A stretch of 64,000 bases of DNA, from the NCBI GenBank assembly GCA_020632265.1, contig JACKFW010000001.1:534846-598845 (forward strand), read 5' to 3'. Positions within the stretch are counted from its first letter, which is position 1. Each line of letters begins with the position of its first letter. This document shows positions 9,614 to 62,748 of this stretch, piece after piece. The notes under the pieces are model-generated. The model was not told the DNA's origin. It saw only the letters and a program-made list of their open reading frames with translations, and did not search any database. The DNA is from Pseudomonadales bacterium. Its GTDB lineage: Bacteria > Patescibacteriota > Microgenomatia > UBA1400 > PJMF01. A program made the translations under genes and the position numbers.

Positions 9614-10210
9614 AATCGTATAAATTGTTTTTTCTGATTACTCAATTGTACCCAAATAGATCAACTATCTTTGTATATTACTTCAAAAAAACTAAAGCCA
9701 TTAATTATCAATATGATGTAATTTTTCAATTAAAATCTAGATATTTAATAAAAAAAGTGTATAATCTGATGGACATGGGGATGTATTGCTTTGACGTGAT
9801 ATGTACTTTAACATTTGCAGACCATCTTTGACTAAGAAAGATGTAAAACAGAGTCAAAAAATAATTGCAGATACAATTGCAACTAATGTTAAAAGCATGC
9901 TTACAGAGGTTAAATCCAATGTTGCTAGCTACTTAACACCAAATTACGCTTTCGTAGCATAATTCGGCATCAATTTAAATAATTTCATTGGCGTTTTTAA
10001 ACTTGATGATTCAACTTAAGTCAATGTGACGGGTTAGCATTCGTTTGTTGATGCAAACTTTAAGTAAAAATTGACAAAGATTGTGAAAAAAAGGTTTGTT
10101 TATTTTCCCATTTCACAGTAACAAAAACAAACTAAGTCTGTAGATAATGTTAGCTTGCTATTGCGGACACGAGGTCATTCCTCGTCATCTCCACAGATAC
10201 CTACTTATTG

Positions 10211-23667: not shown

Positions 23668-23832
23668 AGTTACTCCTTTTCTTGCCTTATTAATAGAAGG
23701 CTATTTTATTTTCTTTATACTAAGCCGACAACATTTATATATTATATTGATGCTTCGTTAATATGTTAAAGTTTTATTACTAGATTAAGCTTATCACACT
23801 CGGCGAAGTCATCAAGAAGCAAATTTAAAATA

Positions 23833-24408
23833 TTACTCTGCTTCCATTTCAACTGAATCTTCAGCTGAAATTACTCCTCTAAGAATAATGTTTTTTAGAA
23901 CATCCGATGCTTCTACTTCTTGGCTAACAATTACTTCAAATGGCAATAACTCTTCTGGTAATGATGCCGAACCGACATAACCACCTTTTCCTGAAACTAA
24001 AGAGAACACCTCTCTCATTGCAGTCCCATCAACCTCTTTTAGCCAAACATTATAATCTAAATCAGATTCTGGAAGATTGGCTACAACTGAAAAACGAACT
24101 TTTCCATCCTTAATTTCATATCTAATCACACCTTCTGAATCAACTATCATACTGTTTTCTTCAGAAATGTCTGAATCATCCATTTTTTCTGATTCTTGAG
24201 AACTAGACACTAGGTCAACAACTTTATAATCTCCAACTCCATTGACTGAATTTACCAACTCTTCTTCACTTAAGTTTTCAATTTCTACTCCTTCGGCGAA
24301 CATATCTTGCTCTAAACGTTGAGTTCGCATGTTATACCACCTAAAAACTAGGAGAAAAACAACACTTAAAACAACAAGTGGAAATATATACGGCGTGTAC
24401 TTTTTCAT
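23833..24408 (-). CDS. N-terminally membrane-anchored acidic protein, unknown function
   Basis: A single N-terminal TM helix, then a highly acidic extracytoplasmic region. Confidence 0.5.
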   Translation of the reverse strand: MKKYTPYIFPLVVLSVVFLLVFRWYNMRTQRLEQDMFAEGVEIENLSEEELVNSVNGVGDYKVVDLVSSSQESEKMDDSDISEENSMIVDSEGVIRYEIKDGKVRFSVVANLPESDLDYNVWLKEVDGTAMREVFSLVSGKGGYVGSASLPEELLPFEVIVSQEVEASDVLKNIILRGVISAEDSVEMEAE

Positions 24409-24444
24409 AATCTACCCTTCAATCCAGCCTTATAAGGCTAAAAT

Positions 24445-25206
24445 TTACTCATTACTAACTAATAATGACTCTACTGTTGTGTACAACTGAGGGGCAGATA
24501 CTTTAATTCCGTTAACATAAAAAGTTGGTGTTGAATTGACCCCCAGCTGATTGCCTACATTTGAGTCATTTGTTACCATTTCTATTACAGAATTATCTTC
24601 TATTCTCTCTAGGAATTGAGTTCTGTCAATATCCAACTTTTCTGCATATGTAACAAATGTGTCAGTTAATTCATCACGATCAGTGATACCTGACCATGTT
24701 TCTTGATTCTCAAAAAGAAGGTCGTGCATACCCCAAAATTTATCCCTATTTATTGAGGAAACAGCTTCGGCTGCAATTGCAGCTTTTCTAGCATTTGGAT
24801 GAATAGAATCAAGTGGAAAATAACGAAAAATTAACCTAACTTTTCCTGGAAAAGCATCAATAATTGACATTGCTACAGGAGCAGCATTTTTACATGCCGG
24901 ACACTGAAAATCTGAGAATTCAACAATTGTAACTACTTCTGAGTCAGGAATTAATTCACTTGATTCCGATGCCATTTGAGCAAGATTATTATTGGAATCT
25001 TGTACATTTAATTCTGAAGAGATTTCTAAATCTTGAGGATCAGAAAAAATAATTGAATTCCTTGCATCTCCAATTACAAGTGCAGAGTCAACTACTACTT
25101 GACCATCTTGAGCCGAATTAGAACTACCAGAAAACATGAAAGCAACTACCACAATTAGTAACAATGTTCCTACAATTGTAGCTATTAAGAGTGGAATGTT
25201 TTTCAT
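24445..25206 (-). CDS. Membrane-anchored thioredoxin-fold thiol:disulfide oxidoreductase (DsbA/BdbD-like)
   Basis: N-terminal TM anchor and CxxC active site in FSDFQCPACKNAAP. DsbA-like length and pattern (cis-Pro region VNSTPTFYVNG). Confidence 0.7.
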   Translation of the reverse strand: MKNIPLLIATIVGTLLLIVVVAFMFSGSSNSAQDGQVVVDSALVIGDARNSIIFSDPQDLEISSELNVQDSNNNLAQMASESSELIPDSEVVTIVEFSDFQCPACKNAAPVAMSIIDAFPGKVRLIFRYFPLDSIHPNARKAAIAAEAVSSINRDKFWGMHDLLFENQETWSGITDRDELTDTFVTYAEKLDIDRTQFLERIEDNSVIEMVTNDSNVGNQLGVNSTPTFYVNGIKVSAPQLYTTVESLLVSNE

Positions 25207-25319
25207 ATGGGTAATAGCATACCATATTTACTCAAGATGCAAAGAGCAATAGATCTGAAGTATATAACAACCTTGAATTTATAATCAAAAAAAAATATTA
25301 CATCAAATTTTGTCTGATC

Positions 25320-25592
25320 TTAACTTTTTGGCCAAACCTGCTCACCTGTCTCAGTATCAGTTACAATAATCGCATTAGTTGGACAACTTTGAGCAGCAAG
25401 CAATTTCTCCTCATCACTATTGCCATCTTGAGAAACTACAATTGCAATTCCCTCTTCATCCAATTCAAAAATTTTAGGTGCAATAGCTTCACAACTACCA
25501 GCACTAATACATTTATCTCTAATTACTTCTACCTTATATTTACCAATTTTTTTCTCTTGAACTACTGGCATATCATTTGTATCATCTGACAT
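25320..25592 (-). CDS. Small single-cluster [3Fe-4S]/[4Fe-4S] ferredoxin
   Basis: DKCISAGSCEAIAP ... AAQSCPTNAI cysteine pattern (CxxxxxC...CP) typical of mono-cluster ferredoxins. 90 aa. Confidence 0.7.
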   Translation of the reverse strand: MSDDTNDMPVVQEKKIGKYKVEVIRDKCISAGSCEAIAPKIFELDEEGIAIVVSQDGNSDEEKLLAAQSCPTNAIIVTDTETGEQVWPKS

Positions 25593-25619
25593 ATTGTTTC
25601 TCCTTAAAAAATTTATAAT

Positions 25620-26333
25620 TTAATTGAACTTTTCAAAATGAATATCTTCTTTGGATACTCCACGCTCTTGAATTAAAGCATTCACATCATCTATCATTTT
25701 TGCACTACCACAAAGATAATATCCTCCCTTAATTGGAACATCGTGAACTTGTAAACAATCAGTAACTCTACCTTTACACAATGGCCATTCTTCTATTGCC
25801 CTAGAAATGACTGGATGAAACTTGAAGTTTTCGTAATTTTCTACTAAATCTTGAAATTCATTTTCCCAAAATAAGTCTTCAACATATCTCAATCCCCAAT
25901 ATAATGTGATAGGACGCTTCTCTCCAACATCTTGCAGTAAATTTAAAATCATAGATCTAAATGGAGCAATCCCAGAACCTGTTGCCACAAACACCAATTC
26001 CTCACAATCATCTCCGTGAATTAAAGTAAATCTACCCAAAGGACCAAGAACATCGACCTCTTCACCGAATTTTAAATTCCTTAAAAAATTACTTCCAACA
26101 CCATCTGGTAAATGCTCAATTAGCAACTCAAAACTATGCTTTGTGTCAGAATTACTACATATAGAATATGATCTTCTATCTCCATGTTCGTCTACGGTTA
26201 TAGAAACATATTGTCCTGATTCAAATTCCATCTCATTAGGATGATCAAGTTCAAAAACGTATTTGGTAAATTTCTCATTAAAGTCTGTTTTATCTGTTAA
26301 TTTTGCGATAAATCTTTGTGGCTTCATAGACAT
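25620..26333 (-). CDS. Ferredoxin-NADP+ reductase-type FAD/NAD(P)-binding oxidoreductase (FNR-like, no Fe-S domain)
   Basis: FAD-binding RSYS motif (RRSYSICS) and NAD(P)-binding GSGIAPFRS with a C-terminal CGS motif (YLCGSAKM). Confidence 0.75.
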   Translation of the reverse strand: MSMKPQRFIAKLTDKTDFNEKFTKYVFELDHPNEMEFESGQYVSITVDEHGDRRSYSICSNSDTKHSFELLIEHLPDGVGSNFLRNLKFGEEVDVLGPLGRFTLIHGDDCEELVFVATGSGIAPFRSMILNLLQDVGEKRPITLYWGLRYVEDLFWENEFQDLVENYENFKFHPVISRAIEEWPLCKGRVTDCLQVHDVPIKGGYYLCGSAKMIDDVNALIQERGVSKEDIHFEKFN

Positions 26334-26342
26334 ATACTCCGA

Positions 26343-26918
26343 TTAATATTTAATATTATTCATCCAATTTCTACCATACCATAGTCCTAGTGCTAATTTG
26401 ATAATACCTTGATATTCCTCAGTTCTATCCACAAATCCTTGAGTAACAACACCTATCATACCTTGTTTTTTACGAACATCTGCCTCGCCAACAAGTTGAG
26501 CAATTATTGGACCCATTTCTCCGCCAGATCTAATCTTTTCTGCTACTACATCAGGAACCATAAATCTTGCTCCGTTGGCAAACTCCATAAATCCAGTTTT
26601 ATCAATCACGGCTGCCCAAACAGTAGACCACATCTGACCTTCCTCATCATCAAAAATTCCACCCTCCAAACCAACTCCCAAAATTTGATCATCTTTAAAA
26701 CTGAATCCATCTACTTCATATTTCTTCAATGCCTCATTCAAAGTTGCTTTAGCTCTATTTATCGCACCTGTTTTGGTAATTTTATCTCCAATTGGTTGCT
26801 CAGGAATATCACTTTTAACATCAAAACCCTCAACAATAACATCTGGCCAAGTCTCAATTGAAGCATTAAGGACTGAGTTAATTTTGACTGGGTTATGTGA
26901 ACCTACAAAAATATGCAT
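26343..26918 (-). CDS. Non-canonical purine NTP phosphatase (inosine/xanthosine triphosphatase, YjjX/DUF84 family)
   Basis: Collinear with E. coli YjjX. Start MHIFVGSxNPVKI matches MHQVVCATTNPAKI, and SDIPEQPIGDKITKTGAINRA matches [21 protein letters not shown]. Confidence 0.7.
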   Translation of the reverse strand: MHIFVGSHNPVKINSVLNASIETWPDVIVEGFDVKSDIPEQPIGDKITKTGAINRAKATLNEALKKYEVDGFSFKDDQILGVGLEGGIFDDEEGQMWSTVWAAVIDKTGFMEFANGARFMVPDVVAEKIRSGGEMGPIIAQLVGEADVRKKQGMIGVVTQGFVDRTEEYQGIIKLALGLWYGRNWMNNIKY

Positions 26919-27035
26919 AATAGGTGAAGTGTAACAAATCTGGAATTAAATGGGAATACTTATACATCTTTTTATAATAATTAATATATTTTAAAAATAT
27001 ACTTTAAAAATATATTTAAAAAATATACTTTAGAC

Positions 27036-27419
27036 TTATTTTGCTTCAAGTTTATTCAATAGTTTCCTTACAGCAGTCAATCCTAACAACAAACACTTGA
27101 TTCTACCAACTGAAATTTTATCTAAACCTAAATCTTGTAAGATTTCTTTTTGAGATAATTGCTGAATTTTGACAATTTCTGATCCTATAATTCTTTGAGA
27201 TAAAACGCTCATAGATGCTTGTGAAATCACACAGCCCTGACCCTTCCACTTAATGTCTTGAATCTTTTTTTTATCTTTAGACAATTTTACAGAAACAGTA
27301 ATAACGTCACCACAACTTGCGTTATAATTAGTTGATACAAAATCAGGAGTTTCCAAATCCCCAAAATTATTTGGGTTTCTGGCTTCATCCAACAGATCTA
27401 AATGATAAATATCGTTCAT
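27036..27419 (-). CDS. sufU: SUF-system sulfur-transfer/scaffold protein SufU (IscU/NifU-like)
   Basis: Three conserved Cys contexts: ASCGDVITV, GQGCVISQAS and RIKCLLLG. Confidence 0.85.
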   Translation of the reverse strand: MNDIYHLDLLDEARNPNNFGDLETPDFVSTNYNASCGDVITVSVKLSKDKKKIQDIKWKGQGCVISQASMSVLSQRIIGSEIVKIQQLSQKEILQDLGLDKISVGRIKCLLLGLTAVRKLLNKLEAK

Positions 27420-27424
27420 AAAAT

Positions 27425-28666
27425 TTAAAGTAAAATTTCGGCAACTTTTTCCAAACCCCTTGCTAATAAATCAACATCATCCTTGGAATTATAAATTTGA
27501 AAACTTGCTCTCGTGGTAGCTACCCAATTTTGAGAAGTGTGCAGAGGCATCGTGCAGTGATGTCCAGATCTGACGGCAATACCTTGACTATCCAAGACTT
27601 GAGCAACATCATGGGCGTGTACTCCTTGATAAAGAAATGCCACCGAACCAACCCTAGTTTCATCTTTTGGTCCCACAATTTCAATATTTTTAATTTTTGC
27701 CAACTTTTTAAGTGCATAAGCCACTAATTGCGAATCATGCTTATGAACATTCTCCATACCTAATTGACTCAGGTATCTAGACGCCTCAGCTAAACCAACA
27801 ATTGAAGCAACGTCTGGAGTTCCTGGAGTAAATCGCTCACTTAGATCATCCTGAAAATTTGTATGCGATTCATGCACCTGCGCAATCATACCTCCACCAA
27901 ATAACCATGGTCTCATTTCCCCAGTTTTTAAAATATTTTCTCGAACTAATAGACCTCCAATACCCATTGGACCCAACATTTTATGACCAGAGAACACAAA
28001 AAAATCTACATTCATTTTTTCAAAATTTATGGGCAAATGAGGTGCAGACTGTGCTCCATCAACCAAAATTCTAGATTTTGGTGTAAACTTTTGCACTTTT
28101 TGTACCAACTTTTTTAAATCTAGCTTGCTACCTAAAGCATTCGAGACGTGTGGAACTGCCACTAATTTCAATTTATGACCAAATTTCTGAAGTTTTTCAT
28201 CAAAATCATTAAAATCAAACTTACCATCTTTAGTAATTTTTATAAACACCAAATTAGCCTTCTTTCTTTTACAAAGTTCCTGCCAAACCACAATGTTAGA
28301 ATGATGATCTAAAATTGAAACTAAGATAAGATCGTCAGCAACTATATTTTGCTCACCCCAACCATAGGCCAAGCCATTAATTGCTTCGGTAGTATTTCTG
28401 ACAAAAATTACTTCGTCATTTTTAGCACCTAAAAAATTTGCGATAGTCGTCTTTGAAGTTTCAAATAAATTAGTACTTTCATCAGATAAAGTATGCACTC
28501 CTCGATGTACATTAGCATTACAATACGAATAGTAATTGGAAATTGCATCAATCACGCTTTGAGGCTTCTGACTTGTGGCGGCATTATCAAGATAAACTAA
28601 CTTTTTATGATTAATTTCGCGCGACAAAATTGGAAAATCTTTTTTTATAGCATGAACATCTAACAT
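27425..28666 (-). CDS. sufS: Cysteine desulfurase SufS (class V aminotransferase). The ORF is open to 28741, but the likely start is Met26 (MLDVHAIKKDFPIL).
   Basis: The PLP-Lys motif SGHKMLGPMGIGGL and the active-site Cys loop RSGHHCTMPL. The N-terminus aligns with the canonical SufS start from MLDV. Confidence 0.9.
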   Translation of the reverse strand: MLDVHAIKKDFPILSREINHKKLVYLDNAATSQKPQSVIDAISNYYSYCNANVHRGVHTLSDESTNLFETSKTTIANFLGAKNDEVIFVRNTTEAINGLAYGWGEQNIVADDLILVSILDHHSNIVVWQELCKRKKANLVFIKITKDGKFDFNDFDEKLQKFGHKLKLVAVPHVSNALGSKLDLKKLVQKVQKFTPKSRILVDGAQSAPHLPINFEKMNVDFFVFSGHKMLGPMGIGGLLVRENILKTGEMRPWLFGGGMIAQVHESHTNFQDDLSERFTPGTPDVASIVGLAEASRYLSQLGMENVHKHDSQLVAYALKKLAKIKNIEIVGPKDETRVGSVAFLYQGVHAHDVAQVLDSQGIAVRSGHHCTMPLHTSQNWVATTRASFQIYNSKDDVDLLARGLEKVAEILL

Positions 28667-28780
28667 AGAGATATATTGTAACATCTGGTTGTAAATTGTA
28701 ATATCTGGAGAAGGAAATTGTAATATCTGAGTGCAATACAATTATAAATCAATTTTTAATCCTATAATTATTGACTATAA

Positions 28781-29008
28781 ATGTTATTTAGTGCTATAAT
28801 TCCCAATCTTTTTGTAAAATTACAGACTCAACTTGTATTCAAATATAAAATTCAAATGGCAAACAAATTAAAAGAATCAGCGAAAAATATTTTGGGACTT
28901 AACTCAAGCGGTCCATTATTACAACGAACTGATTATGAGAATTTAATTAGTCTTTCAGATGCTACAAAAGAAGATCATGAACTAGCAATGAAAAACAACA
29001 AAGGTTAG
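28781..29008 (+). CDS. Small hypothetical protein (50-75 aa), convergent with sufS
   Basis: ORF only, no motifs. It may start at the internal Met (MANKLKESAK...). Confidence 0.3.
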   Translation: MLFSAIIPNLFVKLQTQLVFKYKIQMANKLKESAKNILGLNSSGPLLQRTDYENLISLSDATKEDHELAMKNNKG

Positions 29009-29024
29009 GATCGCTTTTGAAAAC

Positions 29025-29555
29025 ATGATCTCCAAACATACTAATGAAGATCAAAAAAAAGAAGATCAAAATACGATAAATACATACATTAATATACTTA
29101 CAGCACTATACAATTTAATTATTTCAAAAGAGAATGAAAATACTGTCTTAATCAATTTTGATGTGTTTTCAATAAATGATTGGAAGACATTCTATTTTGT
29201 TATGAGTGATTTCTTACATTATTTATACAACTCTGATTATAATGATCCTCAAACAGAAAATGCTACTGTTGCGGGATTTCCCACACTTCTTAAATACTTA
29301 AAAATCTTTGAAAAAATTTGCATGGCAATTACTCCAGAAGCAAAAAAAATAAGAGTTTATTGGATGGATTTTGAAGATGAACCAACAATTCAACAAAGAA
29401 CAAATAGTTTGAGATCTTATAACATACAAGAAACACTATATGCATTAATCGAAAATTACACAAATGATGATCTTAAGAGTTTAATTGAAGACAGCAACGG
29501 CCAGGATATGGAAGATGCTTGGGTATTTGTTGATTACATTAAACAGCAAAAGTAA
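29025..29555 (+). CDS. Hypothetical protein (176 aa)
   Basis: Clean ORF immediately after the previous small ORF. No recognisable domain. Confidence 0.45.
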   Translation: MISKHTNEDQKKEDQNTINTYINILTALYNLIISKENENTVLINFDVFSINDWKTFYFVMSDFLHYLYNSDYNDPQTENATVAGFPTLLKYLKIFEKICMAITPEAKKIRVYWMDFEDEPTIQQRTNSLRSYNIQETLYALIENYTNDDLKSLIEDSNGQDMEDAWVFVDYIKQQK

Positions 29556-29760
29556 AAACTTTACTTAGCCTAAAAAAATTGAGTAAAAACATAAAATTCT
29601 TGTAATAATTATTTTATTCACAGAAATAAAAAATCTAACTTAATTTTTTGTATATCCAAACATAGGTGGGATATGTACGGCATTATTAGCTATCTATTTT
29701 CTGTGGAAGCTCTGCATGGCTTTTCCTAAGATTGTTATAAAACTAATGTTGTCGGAAAAT

Positions 29761-30711
29761 TTATTCTTGAGCAATTGTGTCCAAATATTTATTTTCGTAT
29801 TCTAGAACAAGATTTAGCAAAGTACAACTAAGAAATAGAGCACGAAATTGCCTTGCTTCTTTTGGATCACTTGATAATAGTTTGAGTTGCCCATCGACAA
29901 AATCATGATAATTAAAAGATCGCTGAGATCTCTCGTTAGAATGATTGATTTGTAAAATCGATGAATTTGAATCACCATTTAATAATTTTTCAAATTCAGC
30001 TAAAGGATAAGAACCCGACTTATATTTTTTTTGACCATCTCCAGTCAAAGGATGTAAAGAAAATTTGACACCCTCAATAGGATCATAACTCAAGAGATAT
30101 GGTGCAAATGGACCTATTAATTCTTTTAATTTTATTTGCATTTCTTCAAATTTTCTAATCTGTTCAAGTACATCTTGTCTTAATGGATCATCATCAGGAT
30201 TGGGATAATCTGGTTCGCAATGTAATACAATATATTTTAGTGTACTGATTGCTTCGTATTGTCCAGGTTCAATATCGTAGGGATTGGGATTAAAACTAAT
30301 ATGAAACAAAATCGTACCATCTTCAGATTTTTTATCAAGATATGTAATAAAGCCAAAAAGAAAACCAAATAGAGAAAGATCTGTATATCCAGCTTTCAAT
30401 AAAAGTTCTTTAAGAGTAGATGTTAAAATTACACGTTCAACATCCCTACTACAATCAGAGCGAAGATTTTCACCAGTATTTAAATAATCCCATAATTTCC
30501 GCCTATTAGGTTCTAGTCCCTCTCTTCGTTTTTTTTCTTTTATGAAATGAATAATTTGGCCTGCTGATTGACTTTCAATAATTGTTGGTTCTTGAGCAAA
30601 AAATTTTCTACGAATATTAAGAAAATCTGGTTTTTTTTTAGCTAATATTTCTTTCATGGATATCAAATTATATATAAATATATCATAATTGTCAATATAA
30701 TTCAGCTTCAA
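29761..30711 (-). CDS. Hypothetical protein (316 aa), no recognisable domain
   Basis: Long ORF co-directional with the suf genes. No nucleotide-binding or catalytic motifs recognisable by eye. Confidence 0.55.
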   Translation of the reverse strand: MKLNYIDNYDIFIYNLISMKEILAKKKPDFLNIRRKFFAQEPTIIESQSAGQIIHFIKEKKRREGLEPNRRKLWDYLNTGENLRSDCSRDVERVILTSTLKELLLKAGYTDLSLFGFLFGFITYLDKKSEDGTILFHISFNPNPYDIEPGQYEAISTLKYIVLHCEPDYPNPDDDPLRQDVLEQIRKFEEMQIKLKELIGPFAPYLLSYDPIEGVKFSLHPLTGDGQKKYKSGSYPLAEFEKLLNGDSNSSILQINHSNERSQRSFNYHDFVDGQLKLLSSDPKEARQFRALFLSCTLLNLVLEYENKYLDTIAQE

Positions 30712-30927
30712 ACTTTAAAAAATCCTTCAACTATCAAGTCTTCAGTAGCTTTTTTAAAAATAACTCTTGATCGTAAATAAAAAAAGTAGCGATTCTAAAA
30801 TTTTACTAAAACTAGCCTTAATTAGCACCTCAGCTCTCGCACGCTCAACTCTTATGAATTTGCAGTAATGAAAAACAATTATAGCCACTCAAAGATTTTT
30901 TGCTTAAAAAAATCTAATATAAATAAC

Positions 30928-32160
30928 TCATTGTTTACTATCTATTTTTTTTGGATGAACAAGTAATGGATATTTATTTTGCAGATCACTACCTAATGTA
31001 ATAAGATTTGGCATATTATCTGGAACAGACAAAGCACTATGAGTTAATACTGCCCTTCCAAGTTTTTTTAGAAGAAATTCCTTATCATCATCACCAAACT
31101 TATCTCTAACCATTAGCATTAGTCTTCTAATTTCATTTTCATCGAAAATATCACTTATAACAGGTATTTCCCAACCATCATCTTCTTTATGAAGTATGTG
31201 AAAATTTTTTTCACTTAGAGTTAATTTTTTATAATTTTTATTTTGCAATCTCGCTCTTATTTCCTCAATTTTTTTCTCTAAGTTATCTGTAGCTTGCTGA
31301 GTGGCATAACCATAGCAAAACACAATATTTGTCTTATTATCAACTAAACCATAAGCTATTTGATATGCGTCATCTATGTGTCGAACTGCATTTGACTTAT
31401 CTGTACCACCTAAAGTCCAATCATCTCCAAAAACCACAGCCCCAATTTTATCTTGTTCATTCGGGGGCAGACCACTCCTCAAAAGAAATCGATAAACTGC
31501 CAATTGATTTATTTGTCTAAATTCACAAGTTAAAGCAATTCTCTGTTTTCCTCTTTCAAGAAGAAATAAAATAGGAGGAAAGCCTCTTTTATACCAATAA
31601 CGAGAGGCGTAGTTTTCATCTTTGTAAAGGAAGTCGACATTGACTCTGTATTTACCTTTATCAATCAATAAGGCTGGTAATTTTGAAAGAACAAAGGGAC
31701 CCATGTCCTTTATTTGTTTAACTAAATAATCATCTTTAAGAAAATCTGGATACAAAGGATCATTCTCAGGATTATATTCTTTAAAGCCTTTTCTCATCAA
31801 AAATTCTAAAAACATTTTAGTTACTTGAAAACCCGATGGTTCCCATTTTTTATTCCCTTCTACTATCTCTCCTGATGGATAATATTCTCTTGCTACTGTT
31901 GACCAATAAATATTATCCCCTCCGGCTAATTTGAGAATCTCCTCCCACCTTTTTTCCATCATTTCTTTAATTTCCCTTTCTGAAAGGTAATTTACTGCCA
32001 AAATTAGTCTTTTAACAAGACCGAGGTCATTTGCTGATGGTGAAAGTTTAGAAATCCATTCTTGAAATCTTCCAGGATTAATATGTCGAGAAATCAAATC
32101 AGAATGTGAAAGACCAATATCTATTTCTCCATTTCCTGTATTGACATCTATTTTTCTCAT
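30928..32160 (-). CDS. Hypothetical protein (410 aa), no recognisable domain
   Basis: Long ORF co-directional with the suf genes and immediately downstream of sufD. No Walker motifs. One conserved-looking block reads GAVVFGDDWTLGGTDKSNAVRHIDDAYQIAYGLVDNKTNIVFCYGYATQQ. Confidence 0.55.
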   Translation of the reverse strand: MRKIDVNTGNGEIDIGLSHSDLISRHINPGRFQEWISKLSPSANDLGLVKRLILAVNYLSEREIKEMMEKRWEEILKLAGGDNIYWSTVAREYYPSGEIVEGNKKWEPSGFQVTKMFLEFLMRKGFKEYNPENDPLYPDFLKDDYLVKQIKDMGPFVLSKLPALLIDKGKYRVNVDFLYKDENYASRYWYKRGFPPILFLLERGKQRIALTCEFRQINQLAVYRFLLRSGLPPNEQDKIGAVVFGDDWTLGGTDKSNAVRHIDDAYQIAYGLVDNKTNIVFCYGYATQQATDNLEKKIEEIRARLQNKNYKKLTLSEKNFHILHKEDDGWEIPVISDIFDENEIRRLMLMVRDKFGDDDKEFLLKKLGRAVLTHSALSVPDNMPNLITLGSDLQNKYPLLVHPKKIDSKQ

Positions 32161-32207
32161 TACAGAATATTATATCAAAATATTGAGGAAATATACTTTA
32201 ATATAGT

Positions 32208-32693
32208 TTAAATTTTCAAGAAACCTTGTATAATTAAATCTTCAGCTTGTTTCTTTTGAATACCTCTAGACATTAAATAGAATAGTTGTTCAGAAGGAAT
32301 TTCGCTAACACTAGCTGCGTGAGAACATTTCACATCGTCTGTCAAAATCTCCAATTCTGGTACTGCTTCCGCACTTGCTTGATTAGATAATAACAAAACT
32401 CTCTCAGTTAAAAACGAGTTACTTAAACCACAACCTTCATTAATGACAATTCTTCCAAATAATCTGATTCTGGATTGATCTCGAGCCACTCCTCTTAAAG
32501 TAGTATTAGCCAAAGTATTTTTGGCTTTATGATGAACAGTAACTTCAACATCAATAAAATCGTCATTTTGAGCCAAAAAACTTCCCAAAATTTCAACTTC
32601 AGCACCTTGACCAACTAAATCAATAAAATACTTACCTGATTTTCCAATCAAAATTGTTTTTTTCTGGTCCTTTTTAATTATATATTTTTGCAT
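32208..32693 (-). CDS. sufD: SufD-like Fe-S assembly protein, short form (161 aa; C-terminal SufB/SufD beta-helix core only)
   Basis: The C-terminal motif SHAASVSEIPSEQLFYLMSRGIQKKQAEDLIIQGFL matches the SufB/D family C-terminus. Compare SufB here: QHEATVSKIGDDQLFYLMSRGVSEEQARKMIVNGF. Confidence 0.65.
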   Translation of the reverse strand: MQKYIIKKDQKKTILIGKSGKYFIDLVGQGAEVEILGSFLAQNDDFIDVEVTVHHKAKNTLANTTLRGVARDQSRIRLFGRIVINEGCGLSNSFLTERVLLLSNQASAEAVPELEILTDDVKCSHAASVSEIPSEQLFYLMSRGIQKKQAEDLIIQGFLKI

Positions 32694-32819
32694 CTTATTT
32701 TTAATTTTTTTATATTCAGGTCAATTGCTAAGTTGTATTTAATAAATATTTCTTAATAAACGAACGATTAAAATCGAAGATTTGTGTGAGCGATTAAAAA
32801 ATATTTATTAAAAACTGAA

Positions 32820-34247
32820 TTATCCAATCGATCCCTCCATTTCATGATCTATTAACCGATTCATTTCAACTGCATACTCAAGCGGAAGTTTGCGAACTAA
32901 ATCATCAATAAATCCATTAACTATCATTTTTCTTGCCTGTTCTTCACTTACTCCACGACTCATTAAATAGAATAGTTGATCATCACCAATTTTAGAAACA
33001 GTTGCTTCGTGCTGGATCTCTACTTGATTATTAAAAATTTTATCAATAGGATATGTATCAGATCTAGAGTCTGGATCCAAAAGAAGAGCGTCACAAATTA
33101 CCGTATTTTTACTTCCATGTGCATTAGGACCCACATTTACAAGTCCGCGATAACTAGTTCTTCCACCACCCTTACTAATTGACTTAGAAACCACACTAGA
33201 ACTGGTATAAGGTGCCAAATGAATTGATTTGGTGCCAGTGTCTTGATGCTGATCAGTTCCCGCTAAAGCCATTGATAAAACCTCTCCACGAGCTCCTTTG
33301 CCAGCAAGAATAAACCCTGGATATTTCATAGTCACCTTTGAACCCATATTAAAATCAGTCCAAATCATTTCTGCTTCAGCTTCTACATACGCTCTTTTGG
33401 TCACCAAATTATAAATATTCTTGTACCAATTTTGCACCGTAGTGTATTGACATCTCGCACCCTTTTTAACGTAAATTTCCACAACTGCTGCATGCAAAGA
33501 ACCAGAAGAAAAACTAGGTGCTGTGCAACCTTCAATATAATGAACACTTGCTCCTTCATCAACAATAATTAAAGTTCTTTCAAACTGCCCAGCGTTAGGT
33601 GAGTTAATTCTAAAATAAGTTTGTAGCGGCATGCTTACATGAACACCTTTTGGGATATATACAAAAGATCCACCCGACCAAGTTGCGGTATTTAAGGCAG
33701 AAAATTTATTATCACCATAAGGAATAACTTTATTGAAATATTCTCTAACTAAATCTGGATACTGAGCTAATCCCTCATCCATTGATAAAAAAATCACTCC
33801 ATCCTTGGCCCAAATATTTTGAAGTGAGCCATAAACGACCTCGCTATCATACTGAGCTTTAACTCCCGCTAGAACTTCGCGCTCAGCTTTAGGAATTCCT
33901 AGTTTTTCGAAAGTCTCTTTTACCTCTGGAGGAACGTCATCCCAAGATTTTTCCTGCTTATCTGATGGACTTAAATAGTAACGAATCTTATCATAATTTA
34001 TTGCTGATAAATCTGCTCCCCAAATCGGCGTTTTTTTTGCCTCAAAAGCCTTGAAAGATTCAAGACGCAATTTTAACATCCACTCGGGTTCATTTTTAAT
34101 TGCAGATATTTCTCTAACTACGCTTTCATTTAAACCAGGTTTTAAAATATGAACATAATTTTTGGTAGAGTACGAGAAACCATGCTCATAGGCATCTGTG
34201 TTATCAGATTCGAAATCACCAGTTTTTTTTTGAGCAAATCGCGTCAT
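32820..34247 (-). CDS. sufB: Fe-S cluster assembly protein SufB
   Basis: 475 aa with conserved SufB blocks: the PIWGADLS region, a C-terminal beta-helix and the LFYLMSRG motif. Confidence 0.9.
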   Translation of the reverse strand: MTRFAQKKTGDFESDNTDAYEHGFSYSTKNYVHILKPGLNESVVREISAIKNEPEWMLKLRLESFKAFEAKKTPIWGADLSAINYDKIRYYLSPSDKQEKSWDDVPPEVKETFEKLGIPKAEREVLAGVKAQYDSEVVYGSLQNIWAKDGVIFLSMDEGLAQYPDLVREYFNKVIPYGDNKFSALNTATWSGGSFVYIPKGVHVSMPLQTYFRINSPNAGQFERTLIIVDEGASVHYIEGCTAPSFSSGSLHAAVVEIYVKKGARCQYTTVQNWYKNIYNLVTKRAYVEAEAEMIWTDFNMGSKVTMKYPGFILAGKGARGEVLSMALAGTDQHQDTGTKSIHLAPYTSSSVVSKSISKGGGRTSYRGLVNVGPNAHGSKNTVICDALLLDPDSRSDTYPIDKIFNNQVEIQHEATVSKIGDDQLFYLMSRGVSEEQARKMIVNGFIDDLVRKLPLEYAVEMNRLIDHEMEGSIG

Positions 34248-34304
34248 ATATCATTCAGAAATTATAAAATCTCTTTTCTTTTGTTTATTTAGCTATATTC
34301 TTGT

Positions 34305-34790
34305 TTATTTAGCTGTATTCTTAATTATGTCTGTTACAAACTTCCCTTTGTATCCACCAAAATCATATTGATCGAGTTCTCCAATAGAAATCCATTTATA
34401 ATCAATATGTTCGTGGCTCAAGACCACATTGTTAGGATCAAAGTCTGAACTCAAAATAACTTTCCAACCTAAAATAACAGCAAACACTTGTCGCTTTGCT
34501 TCAAAAAATGTAGAGAAATATACCAAATTGTCCTGGTCTAATTTATCAGGCGACAATTCTATACCTGTTTCTTCAAATACTTCTCTAGTGATGTCTTCTT
34601 TGTGCAAATCCTCAATATTTTCTTTAATTTCAGTCGGCCATTCAGAATTACCACCAGGCAAATCCCAACAAAGAGGTCTTGTATGAGAACTTTCGTCTCG
34701 TAATAAAATTAAAATCTTATCTTCATTAATTAATACAATTTTTTGAAGTAATTTAACATCATCAGTAAGCTGATGGGATCTTGTGCTCAT
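34305..34790 (-). CDS. NUDIX hydrolase
   Basis: Nudix box GGNSEWPTEIKENIEDLHKEDITREVFEETGIEL (GX5EX7REVxEEtGi). Confidence 0.7.
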   Translation of the reverse strand: MSTRSHQLTDDVKLLQKIVLINEDKILILLRDESSHTRPLCWDLPGGNSEWPTEIKENIEDLHKEDITREVFEETGIELSPDKLDQDNLVYFSTFFEAKRQVFAVILGWKVILSSDFDPNNVVLSHEHIDYKWISIGELDQYDFGGYKGKFVTDIIKNTAK

Positions 34791-34826
34791 ATGTTTTTAT
34801 TGAAGTTTTTTGCTAATTTAATTAAT

Positions 34827-35603
34827 CTACAAACCAGCATATCCTTTTTTTTCAAGTTTATTTACAATTGAAGAATCACCACTTTCAACAATTTTTCCAT
34901 TTATCATAACGTGAACAAAATCTGGCTTCAAATAGTCTAAAATTCTCTGATAATGCGTGATTAAAATTATACCAGTATTATATTTTTTTATGATGTTATT
35001 AACTCCCTGAGACACTTTCTTGATCGCATCAATATCCAATCCTGAATCTGTTTCATCTAAAATCGCAAATTTGGGTTCAAGCAATGTCATTTGCAAAATT
35101 TCGAGTTGCTTTTTTTCTCCACCACTAAAACCTTCATTCAAGCCTCTACTTAAAAACTCAACATTAATATTTAAGTCTTTGGCAATTTTTTGTAAATTTT
35201 TTCTAAAATCAATTGCCTTTTTAAATTGACGCTCTGGCCGATCTTTAAATCTCGATTCATAAGCCAACTTCAAAAAATTTTGTACTCTAACTCCTGGAAC
35301 TTCCACCGGATATTGAAAAGCCAAAAACAAACCTAAATTTGCTCTTTCGTCCGGTGACATCTCCAAAATATTTTCACTAAGTTCCACTTTTTTACCATTT
35401 TTGTTTTGTAAATAAACACTTCCGCTCAAGACATCATAATCTGGATGTCCTGCCAAGGTATTGGCTAAAGTTGATTTTCCAGATCCATTAGGACCCATAA
35501 TCGCATGGATTTCTCCAGGATTTACTATAAGGGAAAGCCCTTTAATAATCTTATTTTCAGCGATACTAACTTTCAAATTAGTGATTTGGAGTTGATTTAT
35601 CAT
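34827..35603 (-). CDS. sufC: Fe-S cluster assembly ATPase SufC
   Basis: Walker A (GPNGSGKST), ABC signature (FSGGEKK), Walker B (FAILDETDSGLD) and an H-loop. No TM domain. Confidence 0.9.
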   Translation of the reverse strand: MINQLQITNLKVSIAENKIIKGLSLIVNPGEIHAIMGPNGSGKSTLANTLAGHPDYDVLSGSVYLQNKNGKKVELSENILEMSPDERANLGLFLAFQYPVEVPGVRVQNFLKLAYESRFKDRPERQFKKAIDFRKNLQKIAKDLNINVEFLSRGLNEGFSGGEKKQLEILQMTLLEPKFAILDETDSGLDIDAIKKVSQGVNNIIKKYNTGIILITHYQRILDYLKPDFVHVMINGKIVESGDSSIVNKLEKKGYAGL

Positions 35604-35653
35604 ACGCTCGTATTATATCGAAAATCTACTATATGGCTAGGGAACGATGCAAA

Positions 35654-36337: not shown

Positions 36338-36989
36338 CTAGTACAATTTTACAGCAACAGATATCAATTCCGTCTCTTACATCTTTGCCTTTTTACCTTC
36401 TAGTTGCCCCATCAGCTCTCTCAGCATCGCACGAAGGTCCAGTTGTTTGATTATAATTTTGATAATCTCGACCTGATAAATGATAAGATTGATTATTGCC
36501 AGTTGTGATATTATCACCGGGTTCGGGAGTACCAAAAACTTCAGCTGAACCTCCCCAGCCGGCAAGTGCCAAGCTTGCAAGAGCAATCGTAGTGAGAAAA
36601 CTACTAGTTTTGCCCACAACTCCCGGGTCTTCGACTCTGTTCTCTATTCGAGTCAATAATAAGGCACACGATAAAAGAGTTAGAAATGTTTTAACATAAG
36701 GAGAAATTTTTTCGCTACCACTTTCCTTATGAACTTGATTTAAATAATAAATAGCTTCTAAAAAACCATTTTCTTTCCACAGAAAAAAAAAGAAGGAGAA
36801 ATCATTTCACCTCTTTGAGGTAGCATACAAGCTTTATATTCTATATATGCTTCCTCTAGAAATCGCTCACAAATATTCGAATGCATATATATATGTATTA
36901 TACTATATCACGCTCATTCTACCCACAATCATTTATCTCTTGAAATCCATACTCAAATTCATTTTAATTTTATTTAGTGAATTTTAGAA

Positions 36990-62424: not shown

Positions 62425-62486
62425 GATTGATGTCTTGTAATAATATACAAATGAAGATTTTATGGAATTCTAGGCAAAAAATAGTG

Positions 62487-62560
62487 TAGCAAGGGAGAGA
62501 TTTGAACTCTCGACCTTCGGTTTATGAATCCGATGCTCTAACCAGCTGAGCTACCTTGCC
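62487..62560 (-). tRNA. tRNA with anticodon CAT (Met; or Ile2 if lysidinylated)
   Basis: Minus-strand cloverleaf GGCAAGG-TA-GCTC-AGCTGGTTA-GAGC-A-TCGGA-TTCATAA-ACCGA-AGGTC-GAGAG-TTCAAAT-CTCTC-CCTTGCT-A. It has a G1-U72 wobble. Confidence 0.8.
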
Positions 62561-62667
62561 TATTTGTAATTTTTTCTCGACCAAAACTACTTTAGGATCG
62601 CAGGTAATTATAACAGAACTTTGACTTTTATCTAGAAAGTAATTATAATACCGGTCTGTCACATAGA

Positions 62668-62736
62668 CATAAAAACGCGCGGGATAGTGTACGGTGCACG
62701 TGAGGCTCATAATCTCGCAGGCTGGGTTCGACTCCC
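62668..62736 (+). tRNA. Probable second CAT-anticodon tRNA (compact, 69 nt; C1xA72 mismatch)
   Basis: CGCGGGA-TA-[GTG-TACGGTG-CAC]-G-TGAGG-CTCATAA-TCTCG-CAGG-CTGGG-TTCGACT-CCCAG-TCCCGCA-A. The T-arm and acceptor are good. The D-arm is short and the anticodon stem has two G-U pairs. A strong terminator follows. Confidence 0.5.
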
Positions 62737-62748
62737 AGTCCCGCAAAT

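What the first reader, a model, noticed from the sequence alone, without database searches (positions are those of the whole stretch)
28742..32207. Four genes of unknown function splitting the suf operon between sufD and sufS - top candidate for an undescribed system
The canonical sufC-sufB-sufD-sufS-sufU string is interrupted by a 3.4-kb block. On the suf strand are a 410-aa protein (30928-32160) and a 316-aa protein (29761-30711). Neither has Walker motifs, PD-(D/E)xK, TIR, SIR2, HEPN or other signatures I could recognise. Convergent to them are a 176-aa ORF and a 50-75-aa ORF (28781-29555). The block is flanked on both sides by core suf genes, so it is either an insertion into an essential operon or a lineage-specific accessory to Fe-S assembly. 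Two mid-sized co-directional partners of unknown fold plus a small convergent pair is an architecture common to phage-defence and toxin-immunity cassettes. These frequently land inside conserved operons.
Basis: partly seen in the sequence, partly recalled or inferred. Interest (0 to 1): 0.7.

Follow-up and report, generated by a model that had tools for sequence, protein, structure and literature searches.

The report
Mixed cargo at a suf boundary
The 3.4-kb block between sufD and sufS in this small-genome (Patescibacteria/CPR) bacterium is not one new system: it holds three unrelated lineage-specific passengers (a rare phosphoribosyltransferase-like protein of the clade used as phage-defence effectors, an orphan gene, and the stump of an ABC-ATPase gene) at a naturally permissive boundary between two suf transcription units.

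Summary
The block is real: four coding-looking ORFs lie between a short sufD and sufS. They are not one cassette.

- **75-aa and 176-aa ORFs.** These are the N- and C-terminal remnants of a 1042-aa ABC-type ATPase gene that is intact at the same junction in a relative.
- **316-aa ORF.** It is really 298 aa, with a perfect sigma-70 promoter, and is an orphan. It may be a decayed paralogue of the 410-aa gene.

Across 41 related genomes the sufD|sufS junction holds variable cargo in 18 and none in the rest. sufS almost always keeps its own TGnTAYAAT promoter about 7 nt before its ATG, so the operon is not truly split.

Verdict: an insertion hotspot with one modestly interesting member of a known effector clade, not an undescribed four-gene system.

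The parts
32208..32693 (-). Short SufD-like gene (161 aa, SufBD core only). Last gene of the upstream suf unit and left border of the cargo site.
   Evidence: Pfam SUFBD_core 1.5e-43. Orthologues of 49-76% identity in about 49 Patescibacteria loci.
32169..32183 (-). Conserved extended -10 promoter element (ATATTTTGATATAAT) 8 nt upstream of the ATG of the 410-aa gene.
   Evidence: Identical 15-mer in the window and L001 although the proteins are only 50% identical. Promoter function is inferred.
30928..32160 (-). 410-aa stand-alone PRTase-like protein (PRTase-CE / retron-III-A-effector clade). PRPP loop at residues 241-253 (AVVFGDDWTLGGT), SVPDNMP motif at residues 378-384, C-terminal KYPLLVHP tail.
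30667..30695 (-). Perfect sigma-70 consensus promoter (TTGACA-17-TATAAT) ending 9 nt before the ATG at 30657.
   Evidence: 12 of 12 match; sequence shown.
29761..30657 (-). Possibly a very diverged paralogue of the N-terminal half of the 410-aa family, lacking the PRPP loop.
   Evidence: No homologue in the 5.8-billion-protein search or in the phage, plasmid, viral or metagenome collections. Codon score 0.30. Smith-Waterman z 4.07 to P0005 and P0007 against a control maximum of 2.76.
29681..29707 (-). 27-nt copy (81% identical) of the 3' end of the 410-aa gene (30929-30955), lying 54 nt past the stop of the 298-aa gene. Possible scar of a tandem duplication.
   Evidence: Repeat D2. Only 1 of 238 background segments aligns as well. 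Marginal.
29573..29649 (.). AU-rich hairpin flanked by an A-run and a T-run in the convergent spacer. Candidate bidirectional terminator between the 176-aa and 298-aa genes.
   Evidence: Spacer 29556-29760 folds at -38.3 kcal/mol, z = -2.5, and 4 of 200 shuffles fold as well. Not picked up by the simple terminator scan.
29025..29555 (+). 176-aa ORF: C-terminal-domain remnant of an ABC-type ATPase gene.
   Evidence: Residues 13-150 align to residues 891-1008 of the L003 1042-aa protein (25.5% identity; E 5e-6 by blastp, 7e-7 by tblastn). Same orientation relative to sufS and sufD as in L003.
28856..29008 (+). 50-aa ORF (75 aa from the upstream ATG at 28781): N-terminal remnant of the same ABC-type ATPase gene, in a different frame from the 176-aa ORF.
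   Evidence: Residues 26-72 align to residues 1-47 of the L003 protein (47-49% identity, E 1.5e-9 to 3e-9). The L003 protein matches ABC_tran at 2.4e-8 and has Walker A, signature and Walker B motifs.
28771..28800 (+). Promoter-like site (TTGACT-18-TATAAT with TG) upstream of the 50-aa remnant.
   Evidence: 11 of 12 match with extended -10.
28673..28729 (-). Three 15-nt direct repeats (about 21-nt period), each carrying the sufS -10 element (TATTACAAT / TGTTACAAT). The proximal copy is the conserved sufS promoter.
   Evidence: Repeat D1. Alignment with L001 and L003. TGnTAYAAT found 11-16 nt (mostly 12-14) before the sufS ATG in at least 35 of 45 loci.
27425..28666 (-). sufS (413 aa from the conserved ATG). 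First gene of the downstream unit sufS-sufU-NTPase-FNR-ferredoxin and right border of the cargo site.
   Evidence: Aminotran_5 3.4e-123. Gene call of 413 aa. Start conserved in orthologues.

Best explanation
The sufD|sufS junction in this Patescibacteria lineage is a boundary between two transcription units: sufC-nudix-sufB-sufD, and sufS-sufU-NTPase-FNR-ferredoxin. sufS brings its own extended -10 promoter placed about 7 nt from its ATG, which suggests a leaderless-type start. DNA can therefore be gained and lost here without disabling Fe-S assembly, and different genomes carry different cargo at this site.

The window carries three independent items.

1. **A 410-aa stand-alone PRTase-like enzyme with its own conserved promoter.** It has the type I PRTase core, with a hydrophobic strand, a D/E-D dyad, a TLGGT loop and a helix. 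It also has motifs that parallel those of retron type III-A effectors (PDNxP against PNNxP, and a (Y/F)PLL C-terminal peptide). I infer that it binds PRPP and, when active, consumes or diverts PRPP or nucleotides. That would make it a single-protein conflict (abortive-infection-type) effector. Its roughly 200-residue N-terminal part and its C-terminal tail would provide regulation in place of the retron RT and msDNA.
2. **A 298-aa orphan with a perfect promoter.** It may be a catalytically dead, decayed tandem paralogue of item 1.
3. **The out-of-frame N- and C-terminal stumps of an ABC-type ATPase gene.** The gene has lost about 830 internal codons.

Shown here: the gene layout, the presence/absence pattern, the remnant relationship, the PRTase-family relationship and the promoter-motif conservation. 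Inferred: promoter activity, enzymatic activity, a defence role, and the paralogy of the 298-aa gene.
For: **Layout and polymorphism**
- Searches give the layout and the presence/absence pattern.
- Extra DNA above 300 bp occurs at sufD|sufS in 18 of 41 loci (maximum 5.9 kb). The figures are 2 of 47 at sufB|sufD, 1 of 33 at sufS|sufU and 1 of 36 at ntpase|fnr.
- Cargo elsewhere is heterogeneous: ABC ATPase, DUF2075/Nhi-like helicase, Ser/Thr kinase, AbiEii, methyltransferase, GNAT, TspO, RNase HII and orphans.

**sufS promoter**
- A TGnTAYAAT element lies 11-16 nt (mostly 12-14) before the sufS ATG in at least 35 of 45 loci, whether or not cargo is present.

**410-aa gene**
- The L001 orthologue (50% identity) sits between sufD and sufS, with sufS following 44 bp later.
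- The upstream 15-mer ATATTTTGATATAAT is identical in both.
- It matches PF24390 at 28.6 bits against a cutoff of 27, and PADLOC PRTase_III-A in 6 of 7 members.
- The AF2 model has pTM 0.73, with the DD dyad at the C-terminal end of strand 239-249 and helix 257-272 following the TLGGT loop.
- The motif comparison uses Retron-Eco11, where the effector depletes PRPP and the tail tyrosines are essential (PMC12746101).
- The family is tiny, with 6 relatives among 1.84 billion representatives. Distant members have no RT, no suf context and no shared neighbour.

**Remnants:**

**Orphan:**
Against: - No experiment or transcript data supports promoter use or leaderless starts. The overall number of promoter-like hits in the block equals the chance expectation (26 found against 24.9 expected).
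- A solo effector with no identified sensor or antitoxin is mechanistically incomplete. The Eco11 effector alone was not toxic.
- The position next to sufD is retained in two genomes, so a suf-linked role cannot be formally excluded.
- The 176-aa ORF is still open despite a stop-rich composition, so it may be a functional truncated protein rather than debris.
- The paralogy of the 298-aa gene is statistically marginal (HMMER E about 0.05, hhalign probability 1%).
Confidence: 0.65

Rival explanations
1. The four ORFs form a single undescribed phage-defence or toxin-immunity cassette that landed inside the suf operon.
For: The 410-aa protein belongs to a defence-associated PRTase clade. The 410-aa and 298-aa genes are co-directional neighbours. 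Some cargo at the same junction in other genomes is defence-like: AbiEii, an Nhi/AbiO-like helicase and a PD-T4-6-like kinase.
Against: The components have different distributions. L001 has only the 410-aa gene. L003 has only the ABC-ATPase gene, of which the two small ORFs are fragments. The 298-aa gene is unique. Each unit has its own promoter-like site. No neighbour is shared among the six family members. PADLOC gives no hits for the 298-aa or 176-aa proteins.
Confidence: 0.05
2. The 410-aa protein is a lineage-specific accessory of Fe-S cluster assembly (for example a regulator or nucleotide-dependent helper of SufBCD/SufS), which would explain its retained position between sufD and sufS.
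For: It has the same position and orientation in two genomes whose copies have diverged to 50% identity. It lies only 47 bp after sufD. The extended suf neighbourhood also holds nucleotide-handling genes (NUDIX, an NTPase_I-T family NTPase).
Against: It is absent from all of the roughly 49 species-representative relatives that have the same suf cluster. Distant homologues are never next to suf genes. There are no conserved cysteines: both Cys in the window protein are replaced in L001. It has its own conserved promoter. It evolves much faster than SufD and SufS (50% against 76% identity). It gives no hit to any Suf, Isc or Nif family.
Confidence: 0.07
3. The 410-aa protein is a housekeeping nucleotide-salvage PRTase or a PRTase-fold regulator (PyrR/PurR-like), needed by an organism that depends on salvage rather than defence.
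For: It has an intact D/E-D PRPP loop that is invariant across the family. The best structural matches are HGXPRT, UPRT, HPRT and PyrR. From general knowledge, CPR bacteria mostly lack de novo nucleotide synthesis.
Against: It is extremely rare and patchy, with 6 relatives in 1.84 billion representatives, and is absent from close relatives. A core salvage enzyme would be widespread. It gives no hit to the canonical Pribosyltran family at E of 1 or less. Sequence profiles place it with retron/invasive-element PRTases rather than metabolic ones. It diverges quickly.
Confidence: 0.15
4. The 298-aa gene is an unrelated orphan from an unsampled mobile element or phage (or arose de novo), not a paralogue of the 410-aa gene. 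The short repeat and weak alignments are coincidence.
For: HMMER E is about 0.05 and hhalign probability is 1%. The Smith-Waterman z against the adjacent 410-aa protein itself is only 1.7. The 27-nt repeat is marginal. It has the lowest GC3 of the region at 0.14. Its own perfect promoter suggests an independently acquired cassette.
Against: There is a colinear 175-residue alignment to P0005 with z 4.07 that contains two family motifs, and a z of 4.07 to P0007. Sixteen controls reach at most 2.76. A copy of the 410-aa gene's 3' end lies just beyond its stop.
Confidence: 0.5

Closest known systems
Retron type III-A PRTase-like effectors (e.g. the Retron-Eco11 effector; Mestre et al. 2020 clusters 67/113; PADLOC PRTase_III-A)
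   Same: Profile similarity in 6 of 7 family members. The PRPP loop has the same spacing (VVILTDTIGSG in Eco11, VVFGDDWTLGG here). A PDNxP motif parallels the clade-specific PNNxP. A conserved tyrosine/proline C-terminal peptide is present. The fold is closest to XGPRT/HGPRT-type PRTases in both.
   Different: There is no reverse transcriptase and no msr/msd-type RNA next to it in the window, in L001 or in any distant relative. No winged-helix DNA-binding domain or partner was detected. It has about 200 extra N-terminal residues with a 58-residue variable insert. It is found in Patescibacteria rather than Proteobacteria. The similarity is weak (E 1e-5 to 1e-8).
Pfam PF24390 PRTase-CE (PRTases of invasive elements; Iyer et al. 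2017, PMC5512222)
   Same: The window protein scores above the family's gathering cutoff (28.6 against 27). It has the catalytic DD-type motif. Solo forms of this group are described in the paper. The best viral structural match is a PRTase-CE protein.
   Different: Only 3 of 7 family members reach E of 0.1 or less. The gene is chromosomal, inside a housekeeping cluster, with no phage or conjugative-element genes nearby. It is not part of a polyvalent protein.
ShosT / PsyrT PRTase toxins of the ShosTA and PsyrTA toxin-antitoxin defence systems, and Ophion OpnC
   Same: These are defence-associated PRTases reported to fall in the same PRTase clade as retron effectors (bioRxiv 10.1101/2025.09.30.679545). 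They act by disturbing nucleotide and PRPP metabolism (PMC11961720 abstract).
   Different: PADLOC reported no family other than PRTase_III-A for the window protein at E of 1 or less or for any family member at E of 0.1 or less. I did not confirm independently that ShosT and PsyrT models are present in this PADLOC copy. No DprA-like antitoxin, radical-SAM partner or PHP partner is adjacent.
Genomic variable-region 'hotspots' between conserved core genes (defence islands / integration hotspots)
   Same: A fixed pair of flanking core genes (sufD, sufS) holds variable, partly defence-like cargo across species.
   Different: The site lies inside a functionally coherent Fe-S assembly cluster. No integrase, tRNA or long flanking repeats were found. 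The cargo also includes ordinary genes such as RNase HII, TspO and a GNAT.

Membership tests
Retron type III-A system | Retron-type reverse transcriptase encoded next to the effector | tested here: not met
   The neighbours are sufD and the 298-aa orphan, and neither has an RVT Pfam hit at E of 1 or less. In L001 the gene is flanked directly by sufD and sufS. There is no RT near P0004, P0006 or P0008. Only two incidental YxDD strings occur in the window's ORFs of 200 aa or more, one of them in SufB.
Retron type III-A system | Adjacent msr/msd non-coding RNA with flanking inverted repeats | tested here: not met
   Rfam at E of 1 or less over 28600-32300 gives only a chance-level hit. The 270-nt spacer after the gene folds no better than shuffles (z +1.1). 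No suitable inverted repeats were found. Novel ncRNAs cannot be fully excluded.
Retron type III-A system | PRTase-like effector with a PRPP motif and the clade motif Gx14PNNxP | tested here: inconclusive
   A PRPP-type loop is present and invariant at D247-W248. The PADLOC PRTase_III-A models are hit. The motif is PDNMP rather than PNNxP, and the upstream Gly spacing differs.
Retron type III-A system | Winged-helix DNA-binding domain, fused or encoded downstream | tested here: not met
   No HTH or wHTH Pfam or PADLOC hit was found in the 410-aa or 298-aa proteins. The 298-aa gene is absent from L001.
Pfam PF24390 PRTase-CE | Whole-protein score at or above the curated gathering cutoff | tested here: met
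   28.6 bits against a cutoff of 27, covering residues 214-385 and profile positions 84-233 of 253. The precomputed annotation of the identical NCBI protein also lists PF24390. This is a marginal pass: only 3 of 7 family members reach E of 0.1 or less.
Pfam PF24390 PRTase-CE | PRTase fold with a catalytic acidic dyad | tested here: met
Canonical type I PRTases (Pfam PF00156 Pribosyltran: Hpt/Apt/Upp/PyrE/PyrR) | Sequence match to the Pribosyltran family | tested here: not met
   No PF00156 hit at E of 1 or less. No PDB sequence hit with the family profile. Only fold-level similarity was found.
ShosTA / PsyrTA toxin-antitoxin defence systems | ShosT/PsyrT-type PRTase toxin plus an adjacent DprA-like antitoxin | tested here: not met
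   PADLOC reports only PRTase_III-A models, for the window protein at E of 1 or less and for the family at E of 0.1 or less. The adjacent ORFs have no Pfam or PADLOC family hit that would identify an antitoxin. I did not verify that ShosT and PsyrT models are in this PADLOC copy.
Suf accessory proteins (SufA, SufE, SufT, SufR) | Family match, conserved Cys ligands, and conservation across suf operons of relatives | tested here: not met
   None of the four ORFs has a Pfam or NCBIfam hit to these families. There are no conserved Cys in the 410-aa family. The genes are absent from about 49 related suf clusters.
ABC-type ATPase (for the 75-aa and 176-aa ORFs) | Walker A, ABC signature and Walker B in one polypeptide | tested here: not met
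   The motifs are present in the L003 1042-aa homologue. They fall in the roughly 830 residues that have no counterpart in the window. The window ORFs are terminal remnants only.

The most novel reading that the evidence does not exclude
The 410-aa protein is the founding member of an RT-independent, single-gene PRPP-targeting abortive-infection effector in CPR bacteria. Its own N-terminal domain and (Y/F)PLL tail would replace the retron RT/msDNA as sensor and lock. The neighbouring 298-aa protein would be a catalytically dead paralogue that has become its inhibitor or regulator, forming a pseudo-enzyme 'antitoxin'. The leaderless sufS promoter boundary would act as a lineage-wide landing pad for such conflict genes.
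Probability: 0.1. Interest if true: 0.6.

Novelty: new member of a known kind. Interest (0 to 1): 0.35.

Why it matters
- It removes a false lead: this is not a four-gene system and not an Fe-S accessory.
- It assigns a rare, unannotated CPR protein family to the defence/invasive-element PRTase clade, in a stand-alone form with no RT. If the protein is active on its own, it would help define what the PRTase module needs in order to be triggered. It would also add to the very sparse catalogue of defence-type genes in ultra-small CPR genomes.
- The conserved promoter directly in front of sufS explains how a housekeeping cluster can tolerate kilobases of variable cargo at one junction. It also gives a simple marker pair (short sufD and sufS) for harvesting accessory genes in Patescibacteria.

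Tried and rejected
**Structure and sequence searches on the 410-aa family**
- A two-sequence AF2 model of the 410-aa protein was too poor to use (pLDDT 41).
- Sequence searches of the PDB with the family profiles gave only noise.
- Foldseek against the PDB gave nothing significant. The afdb50 library was unavailable.
- The third word-index search, using the 7-sequence profile, added no new members.
- Scans of viral and metagenome contigs for close relatives of the 410-aa gene found none. The 7-sequence alignment was too divergent for pattern scanning.

**298-aa orphan**
- No hits in Pfam, NCBIfam, PADLOC or PHROGs, in PDB sequences, or in phages, plasmids, viral or metagenome contigs.

**Hidden retron RNA or riboswitch in the spacers:** nothing found.

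**Mobile-element scars (integrase, tRNA, long terminal repeats):** none. There are only short, mostly chance-level repeats.

**Conserved partner gene among neighbours of the distant family members:** none.

**176-aa ORF:** weak atlastin/GTPase matches (E about 0.05-0.1) were judged to be noise.

**PADLOC PDC-M36B hit of the 75-aa ORF (5.6e-4):** not followed up. It is most simply explained by the N-terminal ABC-ATPase remnant or by chance.

**'Exclusive defence island' reading of the junction:** rejected, because the cargo also includes RNase HII, TspO, a GNAT and a methyltransferase.

Full report
**Observation**

The window is a low-GC (about 32%) genome segment. It carries a suf cluster on the minus strand:
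- sufC, 34827-35603
- a NUDIX gene, 34305-34790
- sufB, 32820-34247
- a 161-aa protein with only the SufBD core ('short SufD'), 32208-32693
- then the 3.4-kb block
- then sufS and sufU (27036-27419)
- then an NTPase, an FNR-like reductase and a ferredoxin

With a codon model trained on 32 long ORFs elsewhere in the window, all four score as coding in their own frame and negative in the other five frames. The scores are 0.35 (410 aa), 0.30 (298 aa), 0.24 (176 aa) and 0.21 (75 aa), against a training mean of 0.38 and sd of 0.11. Composition deviates only mildly: block GC is 0.29 against 0.33 for the locus, and the lowest GC3 (0.14) is in the 316-aa ORF.

The identical proteins are in NCBI as hypothetical proteins of a MAG labelled 'Pseudomonadales bacterium', on a 1.08-Mb contig. 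All close relatives of its SufD are Patescibacteria (Pacebacteria, Woesebacteria and similar), so that label is a misassignment.

**Is the block one unit? No.**

The 410-aa protein has one close relative among 5.8 billion clustered proteins: P0002, at 50% identity. On its 1994-bp contig (L001) the order is short sufD, then the 408-aa gene, then sufS. sufS starts 44 bp after the stop codon of the 408-aa gene, so the other three ORFs are absent there.

Anchoring on the short SufD retrieved about 49 Patescibacteria species representatives with the same extended suf cluster. Mapping the window's proteins onto them showed four things:
- none has the 410-aa gene;
- none has the 316-aa gene;
- in my first tally, 22 have sufD and sufS abutting (gap of 60 bp or less);
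- about 20 have 0.4-6 kb of unrelated DNA at exactly this junction.

Quantified per junction, extra DNA above 300 bp occurs as follows:

| Junction | Loci with >300 bp extra | Note |
|---|---|---|
| sufD\|sufS | 18 of 41 | up to 5.9 kb |
| sufB\|sufD | 2 of 47 | |
| sufS\|sufU | 1 of 33 | |
| ntpase\|fnr | 1 of 36 | |
| fnr\|fer4 | 4 of 34 | |
| sufU\|ntpase | 10 of 31 | mostly one small gene |

The cargo elsewhere is heterogeneous:
- a 1042-aa ABC-type ATPase (L003)
- a Schlafen-group-3/DUF2075 helicase with PADLOC PDC-S41/Nhi/AbiO hits, plus glycosyl hydrolases (L037)
- a Ser/Thr kinase (L038)
- an AbiEii toxin and a methyltransferase (L042)
- a GNAT (L031)
- TspO (L010)
- RNase HII (L021)
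- many orphans

So the junction is a generally permissive variable site with some defence-type content. It is not a dedicated defence island.

**Why the junction is permissive**

Upstream of sufS the sequence GTGkTACAATATAyC-CTATG is shared by the window, L001 and L003. Across 45 loci, a TGnTAYAAT extended -10 element begins 11-16 nt (mostly 12-14) before the sufS ATG in at least 35. A further locus (L007) has it in front of the ATG my script skipped, and several others have TAGAAT or TCTAAT variants. This holds both where sufD ends 4-60 bp upstream and where kilobases of cargo intervene.

The 6-8 nt between the hexamer and the ATG, and the absence of a Shine-Dalgarno-like sequence there, suggest a leaderless or near-leaderless sufS transcript. 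That last step is inference. sufS-sufU and the genes downstream therefore form their own transcription unit, and insertions at the junction do not cut an operon. In the window this element is present three times with a period of about 21 nt, at 28673-28729.

**The 410-aa protein**

*Family size and profile hits.* An exhaustive HMM search of 1.84 billion representative proteins found only six relatives. The seven sequences share three motifs: G(D/E)DW(S/T)LGG(T/S), SVPDNxP, and a C-terminal (Y/F)PL(L/I)xHP. The window protein scores 28.6 bits on Pfam PF24390 PRTase-CE, whose cutoff is 27. Three of the seven members reach E of 0.1 or less on that family. Six of seven hit the PADLOC retron type III-A PRTase models, with a best E of 1.5e-8.

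*Literature.*
- Retron type III effectors are PRTase-like proteins with a PRPP loop (Eco11: VVILTDTIGSGNQ), a clade-specific PNNxP motif and a C-terminal YYPxxLRxx peptide whose tyrosines are essential. Activation depletes PRPP and aborts infection, and the effector alone is not toxic (PMC12746101).
[quoted passage not shown] This is probably the origin of the Pfam name.
- Defence-associated PRTases (retron III, ShosT, PsyrT, OpnC) are reported to share one clade (bioRxiv 10.1101/2025.09.30.679545).

The window family's DD loop, PDNxP motif and YPLL tail parallel these features. That parallel is a resemblance. It does not prove that they share a mechanism.

*What the 410-aa gene is not.*
- It is not part of a retron. 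No RT, no msr/msd-like RNA and no wHTH partner lies next to it in the window, in L001 or near the distant relatives.
- It has no conserved partner of any kind.
- It is not a canonical metabolic PRTase by sequence, since it gives no PF00156 hit.
- It is unlikely to be a Suf accessory. It is absent from about 49 relatives with the same cluster, and its distant homologues sit in unrelated contexts: after a SET-domain gene, near LytR_C, and next to hypothetical genes. It has no conserved cysteines. It has diverged to 50% identity while SufD and SufS are 76% identical between the same two genomes.
- It has its own promoter-like element. ATATTTTGATATAAT, 8 nt upstream of the ATG, is identical in the window and L001.

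*Most likely function (inferred).* It is a stand-alone enzyme that binds PRPP and perturbs PRPP or nucleotide pools, of the conflict-effector type, regulated through its N-terminal region and C-terminal tail. A salvage or regulatory PRTase role is the main alternative.

**The two small convergent ORFs**

In L003 the whole junction is filled by one 1042-aa gene on the strand opposite to suf. It has N-terminal hydrophobic segments, Walker A (GGSGKGKS), an ABC signature (YSDGEKQR), Walker B (VIIDEP), a Pfam ABC_tran hit (2.4e-8) and a C-terminal extension of about 400 aa.

Residues 26-72 of the window's 75-aa ORF match residues 1-47 of that protein (47-49% identity, E about 1e-9). Residues 13-150 of the 176-aa ORF match residues 891-1008 (25.5% identity, E about 1e-6). 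Nothing in between has a counterpart in the window. The two ORFs are in different frames, 17 nt apart, and have the same orientation relative to sufS and sufD as the L003 gene.

They are therefore the terminal stumps of an ABC-type ATPase gene that lost about 830 codons. An 11/12 extended -10 promoter still precedes the N-terminal stump. The 176-aa ORF remains open in stop-rich sequence, so it may still be expressed as a truncated protein.

**The 316-aa ORF**

A perfect TTGACA-17-TATAAT promoter at 30695-30667 lies inside the long ORF and ends 9 nt before the ATG at 30657. The 298-aa form, which is also the NCBI call, is therefore the likely product.

It has no detectable homologue anywhere: not in the 5.8-billion-protein search, Pfam, NCBIfam, PADLOC, PHROGs, PDB sequences, phages, plasmids, or viral and metagenome contigs. 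It is soluble, with pI 5.8.

There are hints that it is a very diverged paralogue of the N-terminal half of the 410-aa family:
- A colinear alignment of p298 residues 43-218 to P0005 residues 75-239 gives z 4.07. It contains the family motifs G[IL][DE]PxR[YFR]K[VIL]W (REGLEPNRRKLW in p298) and [DE]Y(P)NPxxDPL.
- The z score is also 4.07 against P0007.
- Sixteen control proteins give at most 2.76 in 112 comparisons.
- A 27-nt, 81%-identical copy of the 3' end of the 410-aa gene lies 54 nt past its stop.

Against this, HMMER gives E of about 0.05, hhalign gives 1% probability, and the z score against the neighbouring 410-aa protein itself is only 1.7. It has no PRPP loop. I rate paralogy at about even odds.

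The convergent spacer between this gene and the 176-aa ORF folds better than shuffles (z -2.5). It contains a hairpin flanked by an A-run and a T-run, which makes it a candidate bidirectional terminator.

**Verdict**

The block is a composite of three independently acquired or decaying items at a permissive transcription-unit boundary.

Its most interesting component is a rare, RT-less, stand-alone member of the defence/invasive-element PRTase clade in a CPR bacterium. That makes it a new member of a known kind, and its function is inferred and not demonstrated. The hotspot and the conserved promoter directly in front of sufS are useful side results.

Noticed in passing
L003:7312-9876 (also L005, L010, L012, L013, L027, L036, L040, L042, L049); not in the window's sufB at 32820-34247: SufB is interrupted in frame by about 380 aa in roughly ten related Patescibacteria. 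In L003 the single 854-aa ORF carries Hint, Intein_splicing and LAGLIDADG_3 domains, so it is a SufB intein with a homing endonuclease. The window's SufB (475 aa) lacks it.
   Followed up: partly
window 28666-28690, and the equivalent position in L001-L051: A TGnTAYAAT extended -10 element sits 6-8 nt upstream of the sufS ATG in most of about 45 Patescibacteria loci. Where sufD ends only 4-20 bp away, the element lies partly inside the sufD coding sequence. No Shine-Dalgarno-like sequence is present. This suggests a conserved internal promoter giving a leaderless sufS mRNA.
   Followed up: partly
window 28673-28729: Three direct copies (15 nt, spacing 20-22 nt) of the sufS -10-containing element AAATTGTAATATCTG occur. 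L001 and L003 have a single copy. This could be a local triplication of the promoter or a repeated operator. Its function is unknown.
   Followed up: no
window 23800-35650 and L003-L051: The suf neighbourhood is conserved well beyond sufCBDSU in this lineage. A NUDIX gene lies between sufC and sufB in about half the loci. sufU is followed by an NTPase_I-T family NTPase, an FNR-like flavoprotein and a small ferredoxin. In the window's contig a DsbA/thioredoxin protein and an FeS_assembly_P protein follow.
   Followed up: partly
window 30658-30667 and 32161-32168: The 298-aa and 410-aa genes also have their -10 hexamers only 8-9 nt from the ATG, with no Shine-Dalgarno-like sequence, like sufS. 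Leaderless-type starts may be common in this genome.
   Followed up: no
whole window / NCBI records: The source MAG and many related MAGs are labelled 'Pseudomonadales bacterium' in NCBI. Their gene content and closest relatives are Patescibacteria (Pacebacteria/Woesebacteria-like), so the label is a taxonomic mislabel that could mislead context-based annotation.
   Followed up: partly
window 36377-36700: A GC-richer patch (0.37-0.38) has overlapping ORFs on both strands, including an 87-aa gene call without any Pfam hit. No Rfam family matched, apart from one chance-level hit.
   Followed up: partly
window 9777-10196; 62486-62746: A tmRNA gene (Rfam 76 bits; not called by ARAGORN) is present. 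Two tRNA-Met(CAT) genes are arranged divergently about 118 bp apart.
   Followed up: no
L094:4277-6006: In the distant family member P0006 the PRTase-like gene's stop overlaps the start of a 177-aa hypothetical gene, a possible operon partner. That protein shows no similarity to the window's 298-aa, 176-aa or 75-aa ORFs.
   Followed up: partly
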